From positions 48,298,001-48,362,000 of the forward strand of contig OY740799.1 in the NCBI GenBank assembly GCA_963514005.1: 64,000 nt of DNA. The letters run 5' to 3'. Below, one piece after another: positions 21,001-39,000 of this stretch. The position numbers are program-made. Source of the DNA: Raja brachyura (Eukaryota). Each line of letters starts with the position of its first letter. The stretch's first letter is position 1.

Positions 21001-24000
21001 TGCTACACTTGTCACTTTACCTCTCCCCTCGACTCCATTCAAGGACCCAAGCAGTCGTTCCAGGTGCGACAGAGGTTCACCTGCATCTCCTCCAACATCA
21101 TCTATTGCATCCGCTGCACTAGATGTCAGCTGATCCACATCGGTGAAACCAAGCGCAGGTTTGGCAATCATTTTGCATTAACCAACCTGATCTCCCTGAG
21201 GCTCAGCACTTCAACTCCCCCCTCCCATTCCGTATCTGATCTCTCTGTCCTGGGCCTCCTCCATGGCGAGAGTGAGCAACACCAGAAATTGGAGGAACAG
21301 CACCTCATATTGCGCTTGGGCCGTCTGTATCCCGGTGGCCTGAACATTGAATTCTCCCAATTCCGTTAGCCCTTGCTGTCTCCTCCCCTTCCCAGCCTTC
21401 TTTCAGCCCTCGGACTCCTCCTCCTCCTCATTTTTCCTTTCTTCTCCCCGCCCCCCCCCCTCATCAGTCTAAAGAAAGGTTTCGGACCAAAATGTTACCC
21501 ATTCCCTTCTCCATAGCTGCTGCTGCACCCGCTGAGTTTCTCCAGCATTTTCATCTACCTCGATGTCTATTTCTATATTTTTTAATATATATATATATAT
21601 GTATATGTGTGTGTGTATATATATATATATTAAAAATTCACAGTGCTATGTTTATATATTCTGTTGTGCAAATAAGAATACCGTTATTTTGTCTGGGACA
21701 TATGACAATAAAAGACACTTGAAGGCAAGATGAACGGTGTACTGTGATGTTTTTTTTTGTCACGCCAAGTTGTATCTAGCCAGTTGGAATATTTCCACCA
21801 TTTTCTAGTTTTGTTTTACACTCCTAATAATTAGTATGAAAAGCATGCCAGTGTACATTAAGACAATGGTTTGCACTTAACATCACGGTGAAATAAGTGC
21901 AAGGATTCTGCTGATGGACACTAGAAGCTGGAGTAACTCAGCAGGACAGGCATCATGTGTGGAGAGAAGGAATGGGTAACGTTTTGGGTTGCAACCCTTC
22001 TTCAGACTACTGCCAGCTGCAGTGTTGGAATCTCAGCAATGATGCTTTGCAGGTACTCCTACTGCTGCGCTTGCGCAGACACCGCCCCTCCCACAGGCGG
22101 TACCGTATTGCGCCTGCGCAGGATCGCCCCGGCAGACAGGTGGGCCGGTACTGCGCATGCGCACGACCGCTCTGCACTTGGCCGCGCCACACATCTGCTG
22201 CCCGACGGTGCGGGGCCGAGAGCCGGGCCGGGCATGACGGAGGGAGGGTGGCCCTGCGTGCTGACGTCACGTGCTGCAGGCAGGCGAGGCTTGTTTCGAC
22301 TCGAGGCATACGGCGCGCGCTCCCTCCCTCCCTCTCTCCCTCCCCCTGTGGTGCGGGCGGGCGCCCGTGAAGCTGCGCGCGGGTGGGCGGTTGGTCTGTC
22401 TGTCCCGCTCCAACCCCGCCGTCATCAGCACGTCACCCAGCTCAGTCCGTCCGTCCGCCTCACGCACGGCGAAATGACGTGTGACAGGCGCAATGTGAGA
22501 CGGCGGCCAGAGGGAGGCGCTGTGGCAGCATGTCAAGAGTATTTCATTGTCATGTGTCCCAGATCCACCAATGACATTCTTACTTGAAAGTCACACAGCA
22601 TGGAAACAGGCCCTTCGGCTCAACTTGCCCAAACTGACCAACATGTCGCAGCTACACTAGTCCCACCTGACTGCGTTTGGTCCATGTCCCCCCTGTAAAT
22701 AAGCAATTTACAAACTCTAAGAGTGTTCAACACATTTTAATGATAGCACAAGGTATTACATACATCCTCAAGTACTGGCTACATTCTTCTAGTGAACCGT
22801 ACCCAGGAAGGGGAGGGCGTTATGATTGATGTTGACTAGGCGGGGTTAATGGTACTGAGGTAACTATGTTATTGGTTGCATGCAAAACCATCTACATCCT
22901 TCCCCTTCGAAAATAAAAAAAAAACAGACCGTTGTCACTACAACAGAATTAAACAGAATTAAACAGAATCGCCATAACGAACAGGTGGCTTGCTGATCCG
23001 GCCCGAGCGCGTACGGATGCCTCCCCCTTCCCCCGGAGGAGCAGAAAAAACAGGGGAACCCGAGACAGTAGGGGAACCAGGGAAGGGCGGTGGGGTTGGA
23101 GGAACAGCGGAGGGAGAACCGCGACCGGCAACAGGTGACACGCGCAGAGGGGAACCGGGTGCTCGATATGGGGAACGAGGCATGCAGGGAACGCTGGCTG
23201 GGACAGGAGCCGGCTGCTGGTATGAGAGCGGCGGGGCATAGGGGCCCGGGGCCTGCGGCTTCGGCTCATTAACCGCAAGCAGGTGTTGTCGGCTCCTACG
23301 GTAGATGGTTCCCTCATAGTCGACCAGATACGAACGAGGTGAGTCGGCCACCCCAACCACGGTAGCCAGACGGGAGTGACCACTGGCGGTTTGCAATCGA
23401 ACAACCTGTCCAGGCAACAGAGGATCGAGTGGTCTGCACGACCGATCGTGGGAACGCCGCTGGCTGTCATGTTTCTCTTGAATGCGCCTCTGCACGGAGG
23501 CAGGCTCCAGCACCCGAGGTTTCAGCTGGCGCTGGGCAATCGGGATGGTAGATCTGGTTGTTCTGGACATTAGACGCTGAGCAGGGGACCCCATGGCCGG
23601 ATCCCTGGAAACATTCCTGAGGTTCAGGAGATCCAAATACAAATCAGAGTTAGACAGTCTCGCCTGTTCCATCAGAAGCTTGGCGCTGCGGACGGCCCGT
23701 TCAGCAAGGCCGTTGCTCTGTGGGTACTCCGGGCTGCTGGTGAAATGCACAAAATTCCATTTGTCGGCAAAACTCTTGAACTCTCGGCTGGTAAACTGCC
23801 TGCCATTGTCAGTCTGCAGCCTCACAGGGGACCCAAACGTGGATAAGTGTTTCCGCAGCTTACGGATTAGCATCTCCGACGTGAGGGATGTCAGCAAATC
23901 CACCTCAAACCAGTTTGAGTACGAGTCGACCAGGACAAGGTAGTGGTTACCACGCCACTCGAAGATGTCGGCAGCCAGCGAGGACCAGGCCAAGGCAGGA

Positions 24001-36000: not shown

Positions 36001-39000
36001 ATACACATGGACGCACGCACACACGCACGCACACACGCACACACGCACACAACCATGAACCAATACGAAAACCATGTTGGATTTAAGCAAAGTTATACTT
36101 ATTCATACACGTCTACCCAGTTACAGGCAAATGGAAGGGCAATTCAGGTCATTTAACCAGTAGTTTTCCACGCGTTCCAAAAGACTAAGTGTAACCGTTG
36201 ATTAATTCTTGCTCCATATTTTACACTAGGAAAAATATTGCCTATAAAATGGTTTAACGCTATTTTTGTACAGGAGCCTTCCTCCATTACCTATCCGAAA
36301 ACATGATACATCAGACAACAGGGTTCTAATGTGGGAATTATGGCAAATTATTGGGAGCCAATGTTTTCATTCAGTGAGTTCCTTCGCCGAGCTCCGGTCA
36401 CCATCTCTAAATAAAGGTTTACCTGATAACATTGTAAGCAATAACCAGCTTCAATGTTTATACCATTCCGGTTAGTAAATTATATTAATGGGAAGCGGAC
36501 GTTTATGGGATGAACAATGAATCCCAGAAATATCCATACATATGGCTTTCTCTAAAACTATTCATAAACGGTTCTTTATTAGCTGCTGTGGCTACAATTG
36601 GCCATGATTTTGTGTATATTTTTTGAGGGTGCTTACCTCAACGTAAAAACAGTTCATAGTAAATTCATATCCCCAATATTGATATTCGTATTATTTTGGT
36701 AAGTAATACATAACATACAATGTTGTATATTAGAAAACATTGTGAATGTCTTCACGTTCTGCTTTCTGTAGATTACGCCGACGACGTTGGTCTTGAGGAT
36801 TATGAGGAAGACAAAGACAACATCTGGACAACCGCTTCTACATTCATTATCCTGTTCTTCCTGAGCATTTCCTACTGCGCTACCTTAACTCTGGTGAAGG
36901 TGAGTTCATTCCACTTACTTTTCCACCTGATTGAAGAGTACGGCACAATATATTTGAAGGTCCTGGCATCTTAATCACAGACTGCTAATACACTTTCATG
37001 CTCTCTTCCTCTCTTCACAGGTCAAGTGACGATTGAATGTTGAAAATCGCGTATTTTTCAGACCGGTCTATGGACGATATCCGTTGTACCCAAGGGAAAC
37101 GTTCCAATCTGAAGCGGACAATATAATAAGCAATAGTTCATTCTGTCGATCTGACTTGTTTGATATTGCCTTTAGTACAGCGTTAATGTATCAAACTATT
37201 TTAATCCTAATTCGAATATCATGTGAAAATAAATTGATTTCCTCAAACGGTATACATGTTTGTGTTTATATTTATCCTCTTTTCTATACATTCTCTTTTT
37301 CTTTACATGGGCCATATTCGTGTCATTCCGGCGTTGAATGCCGCTGTATAGAATGTCAGGATCGGTGTATGCATGAGATCGTAAACTTCATGTTAAATTC
37401 AGACAATCTATGCCTCCCATTATTCTAAAAAACTTCTATCGGGTCTCCCTTCAACCTCCAATACTCCAAAGAAAACAATCCATCTTTAGCTAACCACATA
37501 CTCAAGCATTGAAAATAGTTGCAGGAGGAGACCATTCGGCCCTACGAGCCAGCACCACCATTCATTCTGATCATGGCTGATCGTCCCAAATCAATAACTC
37601 GTGCCTGCTTTCTCCCCATATCCCTTGATTCCAATAGCCCATAGAGCTCTATCTAACTCTCTCTTAAACCCATCCAGTGATTTGTCCTCCACTGCCCTCT
37701 GTGGCAGGGAATTCCACAAATTCACAACTCTCTGGGTGAAAACGGTTTCTCCCACCTCAGACTTAAATGGCATCCCCTTTATTCTAAGACTGTGGCCCCT
37801 GGTTCTGGACTAGACCAAAATTGGGAACATTTTTCCTGCATCATACTTGTCCAGTCCTTTTATAATTTTATATGTTTCTACAAGATCCCCCCTCATTCTT
37901 CTAAACTCCAGTGAATGTAAGACTAGTCATTTCAATCTTTCCTCATATGACAGTCCCGTCATCCCAGGGATCAATCTCGTGAACCTCCGCTGCACTTCCT
38001 CAATCACAAGGATGTCCTTCCTCAAATTAGGAGACCAAAACTGTACAGAATGTTCCAGATGTGGTCTTACCAAAGCCCTATACAGGTGCAGTAGAACCTC
38101 TTTACTCCTATACTGAAATCCTCTTGTTATAAAGGCCAACATTGCATTAGCTCTCCTCACTGCCTGCTGTAACTGCACGCCAACTTTCAGTGACCGGTGT
38201 ACAAGGACACCCAGGTCTCGCTGCACCTCCCCCTTGCCTAACCTAACCCCATTGAGATAATAATATGCCCCCTTGTTTTTGCCGCTGAAGTGGATAACCT
38301 CACATTTATCTATATCATACTGCATGTGCCACGCACCTGCCCACTCACTCAACCTGTCCAGGTCACCCTGCAACCTTGTAGCATCCACCTCACAGTTCAC
38401 ACTGCAGCCCAGCTTTGTGTCATCCACTTCTTATAGCTAACAACTCGAACCCCTGCGGCATTTTAATAAACCTCTTCTGCATCTTCTCCAAAGCCTCCAC
38501 ATTTTTCCTTCGAAGGGATGACCTGACCTCCACACTATACTCCAAGTGCGGCCTAACCGAAGCCCTGTAAATAAAATGTAATGTAAATGCATGTGTAAAT
38601 ACATATCCGAAAATCCAAATGCGCGCGCAGATTCCGCATATGAGCAAATATCTATTTATTCCTTTTCTGCACAATTGTCCTCCCCTTCTTCTTTTATGTG
38701 GCGAGCACAGCGTAAAGTTGTTGGACAACTTGTTCTATTTGTTCTTCCGTTTGTGCCTGTCGAGTTGATTGCATTAGTCGAAACAGGGCGGACCACGTGA
38801 AGGTTGCAAACTTCCACCCCGGTCCTTCCCGTAATTCAGAGCTAATCTTTAATTCTCAGCTACCTGTTCTCGTGTGTAATTCAGTTGTTTTGACCACGTC
38901 GTGTTATGCTTTTAAAAGGTTATCTGTAATATGTTTTCTGTGAAATCACAAATAATAGCGGAAATACATAAAGCCCAACCGGGTTTGCTATGTTTGTTTC

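What the first reader, a model, noticed from the sequence alone, without database searches (positions are those of the whole stretch)
22040..37233. Intact but headless IgM 3' end facing away from a housekeeping CpG island
Seen: CH4, the secretory tail (NIS sequon, penultimate Cys), TM1, TM2, all splice sites and both poly(A) signals look intact. No leader, V, D, J, RSS or CH1-3 is recognisable in the 31 kb upstream. Between the island and ~30.75 kb there are essentially only transposons, and beyond it lies an unrelated opposite-strand gene. Known: cartilaginous fish IgH genes are compact V-D-D-J-C clusters. Inference: an orphon from a truncated duplication. It could be a recent pseudogene, a V-less CH4-TM or CH4-tailpiece transcript driven by the divergent CpG promoter, or an assembly join near 29-31 kb.
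Basis: partly seen in the sequence, partly recalled or inferred. Interest (0 to 1): 0.75.

Follow-up and report, generated by a model that had tools for sequence, protein, structure and literature searches.

The report
Orphan IgM gene tail among transposons
This is the intact-looking last part of an antibody (IgM-type) heavy-chain gene, stranded among transposons without the rest of the gene; it is most likely a recently stranded gene fragment, not a new kind of gene.

Summary
The IgM-type 3' end is real. It has a CH4 exon (31435-31764), a secretory tail (to the stop at 31824-31826), TM1 (36772-36899), TM2 (37021-37029), consensus splice sites and AATAAA signals. CH4 matches Pfam C1-set at 2.6e-20 and solved IgM/IgA Fc chains at about 1e-45. 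TM1 matches the membrane mu isoform at 3.6e-7.

No other Ig domain, recombination signal, octamer or leader-like exon was found anywhere in the 64 kb, on either strand. The "headless" observation therefore holds within the window.

- About 2.3 kb of the "housekeeping CpG island" (22694-25000) is a young LTR retroelement with a gag-integrase ORF. Only 22040-22520 is promoter-like, and no gene could be tied to it.
- A young LINE fragment sits between the secretory stop codon and its poly(A) signals.

The stretch from 25.0 to 30.84 kb is almost entirely LINE debris. Non-repeat DNA keeps its CpGs from 30841 to about 40.3 kb but is depleted upstream, which suggests a true breakpoint near 30.84 kb.

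Best reading (0.6): a recently stranded, non-functional remnant of an IgM cluster. I could not exclude the missing exons lying outside the window, an assembly misjoin, or a V-less product. Interest is low.

The parts
22040..22520 (.). Short promoter-like CpG island; its gene and orientation are unknown.
   Evidence: 481 bp, GC 70%, 56 CpG, o/e 0.95. It holds two NRF1-like sites, one CRE, one E-box and three GGGCGG boxes (motif names recalled). It is unique within the window. Overlapping ORFs gave no Pfam family at E<0.09.
22694..25000 (-). Young, internally deleted LTR retroelement.
   Evidence: Two 203-bp LTRs (22694-22896, 24798-25000) differ at 2 positions, run TG..CA, and have CCCCC on both flanks. 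The 565-aa ORF at 22962-24656 (-) hits Integrase_H2C2 at 2.4e-12 and rve at 1.4e-10, with no RT. Interior CpG o/e is 0.80.
25001..30840 (.). Mosaic of LINE pieces between the LTR element and the Ig remnant. The last piece, about 30064-30840 (-), is 5'-truncated and abuts the Ig-side DNA.
   Evidence: tblastn with the window's own LINE ORFs gave these matches: 25000-25265 (-), 26307-26450 and 27303-28654 (+), 28847-29059 (-), 29739-30001 (both strands), and 30277-30697 (-). The endonuclease-like ORF at 25496-25873 (+) matched only itself in that search. Self-BLAST matches 30064-30432 and 30632-30723 to 59750-60198 at about 90%. A weak Exo_endo_phos_2 hit (E 0.02, about 26.1 kb) appeared. 26450-27303 remains unexplained.
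30841..31434 (+). 594 bp of unique DNA, presumably what remains of the intron in front of CH4. It ends in the CH4 acceptor.
   Evidence: No repeat in the window and no LINE protein match. CpG o/e is 0.82, against 0.18-0.46 in the nearest upstream non-repeat pieces. AG at 31433-31434.
31435..31764 (+). CH4 exon body (C1-set Ig domain), phase 1, ending at the internal GGTAAA donor used for the membrane form.
   Evidence: Pfam C1-set 2.6e-20, covering profile positions 1-86 of 86. PDB hits: 9ec7_A 1.9e-45, and IgM Fc chains 8r83_B, 8bpe_C, 7k0c_A and 6kxs_A at 4e-45 to 2e-44. Sequence read.
31765..31826 (+). Secretory tailpiece with an N-I-S sequon and a penultimate Cys, then the stop codon (31824-31826).
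   Evidence: Aligned through query residue 128 with the tailpieces of solved IgM/IgA chains. Sequence read.
31838..32258 (-). Young 5'-truncated CR1-like LINE 3' fragment, inserted in the secretory 3' UTR about 12 nt after the stop codon.
   Evidence: 98-98.5% identical to copies at 33382-33797, 4909-5321 and 43039-43465. Junctions defined against sibling copies; the tail repeat has an 8-nt period. Matches the C-terminal ORF2.
32288..32303 (+). Two AATAAA hexamers, the likely secretory poly(A) signals, directly after the LINE fragment.
   Evidence: They are the first AATAAA or ATTAAA after the stop codon. Without the insertion they would lie about 45 nt after the stop.
33376..35588 (-). LINE copy with an open 704-aa ORF, inside the CH4-TM1 intron.
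   Evidence: ORF 33477-35588 (-). It shows 98.9-99.2% identity to other copies in the window. Three downstream minus-strand ORFs hit RVT_1, the best at 1.3e-32, but that search mode does not say which ORFs. The 704-aa ORF aligns with the window's other LINE reverse-transcriptase-region ORFs at up to 4.8e-156.
35806..36082 (.). CA-rich tandem array with an 8-nt period, in the CH4-TM1 intron.
   Evidence: 22 overlapping copies in register.
36772..36899 (+). TM1 exon: acidic linker plus transmembrane helix.
   Evidence: AG at 36770-36771 and GTGAGT from 36900. Best PDB matches are membrane mu isoforms, 8e4c_B at 3.6e-7; IgG1 scores 5.1e-4.
37021..37029 (+). Coding part of TM2: V-K-stop.
   Evidence: A pyrimidine-rich acceptor ends with AG at 37019-37020.
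37228..37233 (+). AATAAA for the membrane-form mRNA.

Best explanation
This is the 3' remnant of an IgM-type heavy-chain gene: part of the intron before CH4, the CH4 exon with its secretory tail, TM1 and TM2. It has been separated from its V, D, J and CH1-3 exons and now lies in transposon-rich DNA.

It most likely makes no antibody chain, because it has no promoter, leader or variable region of its own. The open frames, consensus splice sites and poly(A) signals suggest the separation is recent rather than that the fragment is in use.

The break most likely lies at about 30.84 kb, where a 5'-truncated LINE fragment meets the unique DNA in front of CH4. A LINE-associated deletion or rearrangement, or a partial duplication that ended there, would produce this layout.

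Shown: the anatomy, the absence of other Ig parts in the window, and the transposon map. Inferred: non-function, recency, and the mechanism of truncation.
For: - CH4, tail and TM identity.
- No other Ig domain among the ORFs of at least 50 aa scanned on both strands of the whole window. That is 540 ORFs plus the CH4 control; two alternative-frame ORFs inside CH4 were left out.
- No Ig family in the three-frame X-read of 22000-31436, and no paralogous C domain by tblastn or phmmer. As a sensitivity check, the same CH4 query found the other constant domains of solved IgM chains at 5e-9 to 2e-3.
- No recombination signal on the + strand and no octamer. No leader-like exon.
- Introns are retained, so this is a DNA-level fragment, not a retrocopy.
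- 25.0-30.84 kb is mostly LINE pieces, and a truncated LINE end abuts the unique 594 bp.
- Non-repeat DNA from 30841 to 40298 keeps its CpGs (205 in 5487 bp, o/e mostly 0.72-1.23). Non-repeat DNA upstream is depleted (182 in 9682 bp, o/e 0.08-0.57). The change falls at about 30.84 kb.
- Pseudogene IgH clusters are documented in nurse shark (passages of PMC2435157, and PMC5192425). In sharks, promoters appear only with V segments (PMC5192425 passage).
Against: - Nothing in CH4, the tail, TM1, TM2, the six splice sites or the poly(A) signals is broken. A remnant that had drifted for long would usually show damage, so constraint cannot be excluded.
- The window ends 31.4 kb upstream, so the missing exons could lie beyond it.
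The IgM (rather than IgW) label, the host taxon, the true homology breakpoint and dN/dS are therefore all untested.
- The best single PDB hit is labelled as an alpha chain (9ec7_A), so the comparison supports only a terminal domain of the mu/alpha type with a tailpiece.
- The CpG contrast could also reflect the different ages of old transposon debris rather than a breakpoint.
Confidence: 0.6

Rival explanations
1. The gene is whole, but its CH3-CH4 intron has been inflated by transposons to more than 31 kb, or the 5' part has been moved or inverted further away. The missing exons would then lie outside the window.
For: The window stops 31.4 kb upstream. The interval is almost entirely transposon insertions, several of them young. 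All signals of the 3' end are intact.
Against: The interval holds a promoter-like CpG island. The few non-repeat pieces just upstream of 30.84 kb are CpG-depleted, unlike the Ig-side DNA. Shark clusters are described as compact units (PMC5192425 passages; typical cluster size is recalled, not seen). No Ig domain lies downstream or on the other strand either.
Confidence: 0.12
2. Assembly misjoin: a transposon shared by two loci fused the 3' end of a normal IgM cluster to unrelated DNA somewhere between 29 and 30.84 kb.
For: IgM clusters are multicopy in many cartilaginous fishes (PMC5192425 passage). The junction region is made of LINE fragments.
Against: There are no N runs in 64 kb. The LINE fragment next to the junction is only about 90% identical to its one sibling in the window, and it ends in a unique junction rather than inside a long near-identical repeat. 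Read data were not available, so this is weak evidence.
Confidence: 0.1
3. The remnant is used. A far upstream or unrecognised first exon, possibly from the CpG island at 22.0-22.5 kb, splices into CH4 and gives a V-less tailpiece or membrane protein. Alternatively, the unit serves as an acceptor in recombination between clusters.
For: Frames and signals are intact. All Ig exons share phase 1, so any leader exon would fit. V-less IgW transcripts in sharks, V-less IgD in catfish and switching between clusters are reported (PMC5192425 passages).
Against: A strict scan found 0 leader-like exons between 21.9 and 31.4 kb. A relaxed scan found 2 overlapping candidates inside a transposon, neither with signal-peptide character. 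There is no in-frame start before the domain. A LINE insertion sits in the secretory 3' UTR. At a Tyr-Ser pair of the transmembrane motif in the solved mu chains, this copy has Tyr-Cys. The importance of that pair is recalled, and the state in functional copies of this species is unknown.
Confidence: 0.05

Closest known systems
Pseudogene IgM (Ig mu) clusters of the nurse shark (Groups 6, 7, 8 and G2C)
   Same: They are non-functional members of a multi-cluster heavy-chain family that sit beside functional ones (passages of PMC2435157; PMC5192425 gives three pseudogenes beside 9-12 functional genes).
   Different: Those pseudogenes still carry V-hybridising fragments. Here V, D, J and CH1-3 are all absent from the window, while what is left is undamaged.
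The 3' end of vertebrate mu genes outside teleosts: CH4 with a tailpiece, an internal donor, then M1 and M2
   Same: The layout is the same: a phase-1 CH4, a GGTAAA donor before the tailpiece, an M1 exon with an acidic linker and helix, and an M2 exon encoding V-K-stop. Matches to solved IgM Fc chains and to membrane mu chains support this. The teleost contrast is recalled.
   Different: Here it stands alone. A LINE fragment lies in the secretory 3' UTR, and a 2.2-kb LINE and a tandem array lie in the CH4-M1 intron.
V-less heavy-chain products (IgW delta-V of spiny dogfish and nurse shark; V-less secreted IgD of catfish)
   Same: They are heavy-chain constant regions expressed without a variable domain (PMC5192425 passages).
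   Different: Those use a leader exon spliced to the first constant domain of a complete gene. Here no leader was found and only the last constant domain exists.
Immunoglobulin orphons (gene segments stranded outside the main locus; recalled from mammalian literature, not checked here)
   Same: They are fragments of Ig loci relocated or left behind without partners.
   Different: The known examples I recall are mostly V or D segments. A C-terminal constant/TM unit is a different piece.

Membership tests
Functional IgM heavy-chain cluster (V-D-D-J-C) | Leader and V exon, D and J segments with recombination signals | tested here: not met
   No V-set or other Ig hit in 132 (+) and 144 (-) upstream ORFs, nor in the X-read of 22000-31436. 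There were 0 signal-like sites on the + strand and 1 weak site on the - strand at 20574, against 0.17 expected. No leader-like exon was found. All of this holds within the window only.
Functional IgM heavy-chain cluster (V-D-D-J-C) | CH1, CH2 and CH3 exons upstream of CH4 | tested here: not met
   C1-set was hit only by the CH4 control in all four ORF sets. The best non-self tblastn hit, E 0.007, lies antisense to an integrase ORF. The next best phmmer hit was E 0.14.
Functional IgM heavy-chain cluster (V-D-D-J-C) | Terminal C1-set domain with a mu-type tailpiece (sequon and penultimate Cys) | tested here: met
   C1-set 2.6e-20. Aligned through the tailpiece to solved IgM/IgA chains at 1.9e-45 to 2e-44.
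Functional IgM heavy-chain cluster (V-D-D-J-C) | Internal donor in CH4, plus TM1 and TM2 exons with consensus splice sites | tested here: met
   Read directly. TM1 matches the membrane mu isoform at 3.6e-7. The spliced product was not joined or searched.
Functional IgM heavy-chain cluster (V-D-D-J-C) | Isotype is mu rather than IgW or IgNAR of the same species | not testable with these tools
PDB comparison puts it with mu/alpha-type terminal domains.
Functional IgM heavy-chain cluster (V-D-D-J-C) | Transcription and protein product | not testable with these tools
Processed (retro-copied) pseudogene | No introns; poly(A) tract at the 3' end | tested here: not met
   The CH4-TM1 intron (about 5 kb) and the TM1-TM2 intron (121 bp) are present with their splice sites.
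LTR retrotransposon (for 22694-25000) | Paired LTRs with TG..CA ends, target-site duplication, and internal gag/pol-type ORF | tested here: met
   203-bp LTRs with 2 differences, and CCCCC on both flanks. Integrase_H2C2 and rve domains are present; no RT was found, so it is a deleted copy.
CpG-island promoter (for 22040-22520) | Length over 200 bp, GC over 50-55% and CpG o/e over 0.6 (criteria recalled); an associated transcript | tested here: inconclusive
   The composition criteria are met: 481 bp, GC 70%, o/e 0.95. No exon, gene or orientation could be assigned.

The most novel reading that the evidence does not exclude
The stranded CH4/tailpiece/TM unit is kept in working order because it is used. 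One possibility is a V-less protein made from an unrecognised upstream first exon. Such a protein could enter IgM polymers through its tailpiece, or sit in the B-cell membrane with the signalling subunits as a decoy. Another possibility is that it acts as an acceptor in the inter-cluster recombination known in sharks. The CpG-preserved domain from 30.84 to about 40.3 kb would then mark a locus that stays open in the germ line.
Probability: 0.04. Interest if true: 0.7.

Novelty: new member of a known kind. Interest (0 to 1): 0.25.

Why it matters
The main value is for annotation. This locus should not be counted as a functional IgM gene, and the CpG-rich stretch next to it should not be annotated as one housekeeping promoter.

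It is also a clean example of how young LINE and LTR insertions erode or strand parts of multicopy antibody clusters. Once a full cluster from the same genome is aligned to it, it can serve as a nearly undamaged neutral comparator for dating that process.

If it were expressed, which I think unlikely, it would be a new form of V-less heavy chain.

Tried and rejected
- **Regex scan.** A six-frame scan for Ig hallmark patterns found only CH4, plus one chance 7-residue match at 52889-52909 (-).
- **tblastn hit at 24250-24408 (+).** E 0.007, 32% over 53 aa. Rejected as chance: it lies antisense to the integrase ORF, the ORF holding it has no Ig family, and phmmer gives E 0.14.
- **Lone recombination-signal-like site at 20574 (-).** It has a 13-nt spacer, with 0.17 expected per shuffle over 30 shuffles. 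Rejected as chance: no coding segment lies beside it.
- **CiPC.** Pfam CiPC (E 1.5e-4) hit one of the 144 upstream minus-strand ORFs. I tested whether it marks a gene served by the CpG island. It was not found among the 27 of 144 ORFs tested singly, including all ten between 19.5 and 21.6 kb, so I left it unplaced.
- **RNA genes.** Rfam gave 0 matches and the tRNA scan gave 0, so no RNA gene explains the island.
- **Transposon capture of the Ig unit.** No terminal inverted or direct repeats bound 30.8-40.3 kb. Helitron ends were not searched.
- **Identity of the downstream receptor.** There was no PDB match at E<=1e-10.
- **Literature.** Four searches (listings plus passages of three papers) turned up no description of a CH4/TM-only remnant.

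
Full report
**What is there**

The window has no N runs. On the + strand an open frame at 31380-31826 contains a complete constant-type Ig domain.

Reading the DNA:
- A pyrimidine-containing tract ends in AG at 31433-31434, so the exon starts at 31435 in phase 1. This is the phase shared by Ig exons (recalled).
- A GGTAAA lies inside the exon, so the membrane-form exon ends at 31764. It is followed by a 20-residue tail with an N-I-S sequon and a penultimate Cys. The stop is at 31824-31826.

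Downstream:
- TM1 is 36772-36899. It has a strong acceptor and a GTGAGT donor.
- TM2 is 37021-37029 and encodes V-K-stop.
- AATAAA is at 37228-37233.

Database matches:
- The CH4 frame hits Pfam C1-set at 2.6e-20 over the whole profile.
- Searched as a single exon against the PDB, CH4 plus tail matches a chain labelled heavy chain alpha (9ec7_A, 1.9e-45). It also matches several IgM Fc chains (8r83_B, 8bpe_C, 7k0c_A, 6kxs_A; 4e-45 to 2e-44). The alignments run through the tailpiece.
- TM1, searched on its own, is closest to the membrane isoform of mu (8e4c_B, 3.6e-7) and further from IgG1 (5.1e-4).

The spliced CH4-TM1-TM2 product was not joined or searched. I do not take the window for human.

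**What is missing**

I scanned every stop-to-stop ORF of at least 50 aa in the window against Pfam, with the CH4 frame as a positive control in each batch:
- 132 upstream on +
- 144 upstream on -
- 128 downstream on +
- 136 downstream on -

In all four batches the only member hitting C1-set, ig, Ig_3 or C2-set_2 was the control. Two ORFs of at least 50 aa in other frames inside the CH4 exon were left out.

Further tests agreed:
- A three-frame read of 22000-31436 (+), with X at stops, gave no Ig family at E<=10.
- tblastn with CH4 gave a best non-self hit of E 0.007 at 24250-24408, antisense to a transposon integrase ORF.
- phmmer at maximum sensitivity against 1578 ORFs of at least 25 aa gave nothing better than E 0.14. 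The same CH4 query finds the other constant domains of solved IgM chains at 5e-9 to 2e-3, so intact paralogous domains should have been seen.
- A recombination-signal scan gave 0 sites on + and one weak site on - (20574, with a 13-nt spacer), against 0.17 expected. The octamer is absent.
- A scan for a leader-like first exon (start codon, hydrophobic core, phase-1 donor) between 21.9 and 31.4 kb gave 0 strict candidates. It gave 2 overlapping relaxed candidates inside a transposon.

So the unit is headless as far as the window reaches: 31.4 kb upstream and 26.8 kb downstream.

**The surroundings**

- **22040-22520** is 481 bp with GC 70% and CpG o/e 0.95. It has NRF1-like, CRE, E-box and GC-box motifs. 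It looks like a promoter, but no ORF over it hits any family, and no gene or orientation could be assigned.
- **22694-25000** is a minus-strand LTR retroelement.
  - It has two 203-bp LTRs differing at 2 positions, TG..CA ends, and CCCCC on both flanks.
  - It carries a single 565-aa ORF with integrase zinc-binding and core domains but no reverse transcriptase.
  - It is inserted into an older LINE 3' fragment.

From 25.0 to 30.84 kb, tblastn with the window's own LINE proteins and self-BLAST show LINE pieces in both orientations. One stretch, 26450-27303, has no match and remains unexplained. The last piece, about 30064-30840 on the minus strand, is 5'-truncated. It is about 90% identical to a copy at 59750-60198, and it abuts 594 bp of unique DNA that runs into the CH4 acceptor.

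Inside the Ig unit:
- A LINE 3' fragment of about 420 bp (about 31838-32258) is 98-98.5% identical to three siblings. It sits between the secretory stop and two AATAAA hexamers at 32288 and 32298. Without it, the signals would lie about 45 nt after the stop.
- The CH4-TM1 intron also holds a 2.2-kb LINE with an open 704-aa ORF and a CA-rich array with an 8-nt period.
- The opposite-strand gene beyond the locus is a rhodopsin-type receptor ORF at 53689-54960 (7tm_1, 6.9e-18).

**A compositional boundary**

Non-repeat segments from 30841 to 40298 keep their CpGs. They hold 205 CpG in 5487 bp, with o/e of 0.72-1.23, apart from the 121-bp TM intron. Non-repeat segments upstream of 30.06 kb are depleted, with 182 CpG in 9682 bp and o/e of 0.08-0.57.

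The change falls where the truncated LINE meets the unique DNA. I read this as weak support for a true evolutionary breakpoint at about 30.84 kb. If the intron had merely been inflated by insertions, I would expect Ig-like, CpG-rich spacer pieces between the transposons, and I saw none. The contrast could instead reflect old transposon debris upstream.

**Interpretation**

The best reading (0.6) is a stranded 3' remnant of an IgM-type cluster.
- It is not a retrocopy, because its introns are retained.
- It has no promoter, leader or V of its own. In sharks, promoters are reported only with V segments (PMC5192425, passage seen). It therefore most likely makes nothing.
- The undamaged frames and signals point to recency.
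- The mechanism is inferred, not shown. It could be a LINE-associated deletion or rearrangement at the truncated LINE end, or a partial duplication ending there.

Rivals:
- The missing exons lie outside the window (0.12).
- A misjoin through LINE sequence (0.10). There are no N runs, but no reads to check.
- A used, V-less unit (0.05). No leader was found, CH4 has no in-frame start before the domain, and the secretory 3' UTR carries an insertion. Against this, V-less IgW and IgD forms and inter-cluster switching are precedents (PMC5192425 passages).

**Comparison with what is known**

Pseudogene IgH clusters beside functional ones are documented in nurse shark (PMC2435157 passages; PMC5192425), so this is a further example of a known kind. 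It differs from those cases in lacking the whole 5' part while the rest is undamaged.

I saw no description of a CH4/TM-only remnant in four literature searches (listings and passages only). Supplementary files, which may list partial clusters, were closed.

**Limits**

The following therefore stayed unchecked:
- mu versus IgW identity;
- the breakpoint relative to a full cluster;
- dN/dS;
- expression;
- read support.

One detail for follow-up: at a Tyr-Ser pair of the solved mu transmembrane helices, this copy has Tyr-Cys. The importance of that pair is recalled, and the normal state in this species is unknown.

Noticed in passing
window 22694-25000 (-): A young, internally deleted LTR retroelement. 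Its 203-bp LTRs differ at 2 positions, both flanks carry CCCCC, and it has a primer-binding-like site and a purine tract. Its one 565-aa ORF has integrase domains but no reverse transcriptase. It is inserted into an older LINE 3' fragment (22587-22693 plus 25001-25265).
   Followed up: yes
window 4907-5927, 6166-7306, 31838-32258, 33376-35588, 41915-44826, 47614-48805 and others: A CR1-like LINE family with 8-nt tail repeats covers up to 14-15 overlapping matches in the window. Several copies are 98-99% identical, and one has an open 704-aa ORF, so the family looks recently active.
   Followed up: partly
window 30841-40298 versus 1-30063: Non-repeat DNA around and downstream of the Ig remnant is not CpG-depleted (o/e mostly 0.72-1.23 at GC 33-54%). 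Non-repeat DNA upstream is depleted (0.08-0.57). The cause is unknown; germ-line hypomethylation or recent copying from functional clusters are possibilities.
   Followed up: partly
window 53689-54960 (-): A single-exon rhodopsin-type receptor ORF (7tm_1, 6.9e-18) in a CpG-rich setting. It has no PDB relative at E<=1e-10, and its family was not identified.
   Followed up: partly
upstream minus-strand ORFs, position unknown (window 1-31434): One of 144 ORFs hits Pfam CiPC at E 1.5e-4. It was not among the 27 tested singly. It may be chance in a low-complexity frame.
   Followed up: partly
window 26450-27303: A GC-rich stretch of about 850 bp interrupts a + strand LINE between its N-terminal and RT parts. 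It has no LINE protein match and no Pfam family in its ORFs.
   Followed up: partly
window 36870-36885 (TM1): In the alignment to solved membrane mu chains, their Tyr-Ser pair in the helix is Tyr-Cys here, and the following Thr-Thr-Val-Thr is Ala-Thr-Leu-Thr. It is unknown whether this is normal for the species or a sign of drift.
   Followed up: no
window 35806-36082 and 56.5-57.4 kb: CA/TG-rich arrays with an 8-nt period give long spurious His/Thr- or Cys/Val-rich open frames on both strands.
   Followed up: no
window 21913-22008, 25266-25415, 52011-52120, 58346-58504 and others: A short interspersed unit of about 95-150 bp recurs in both orientations. One copy lies directly left of the CpG island.
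   Followed up: no
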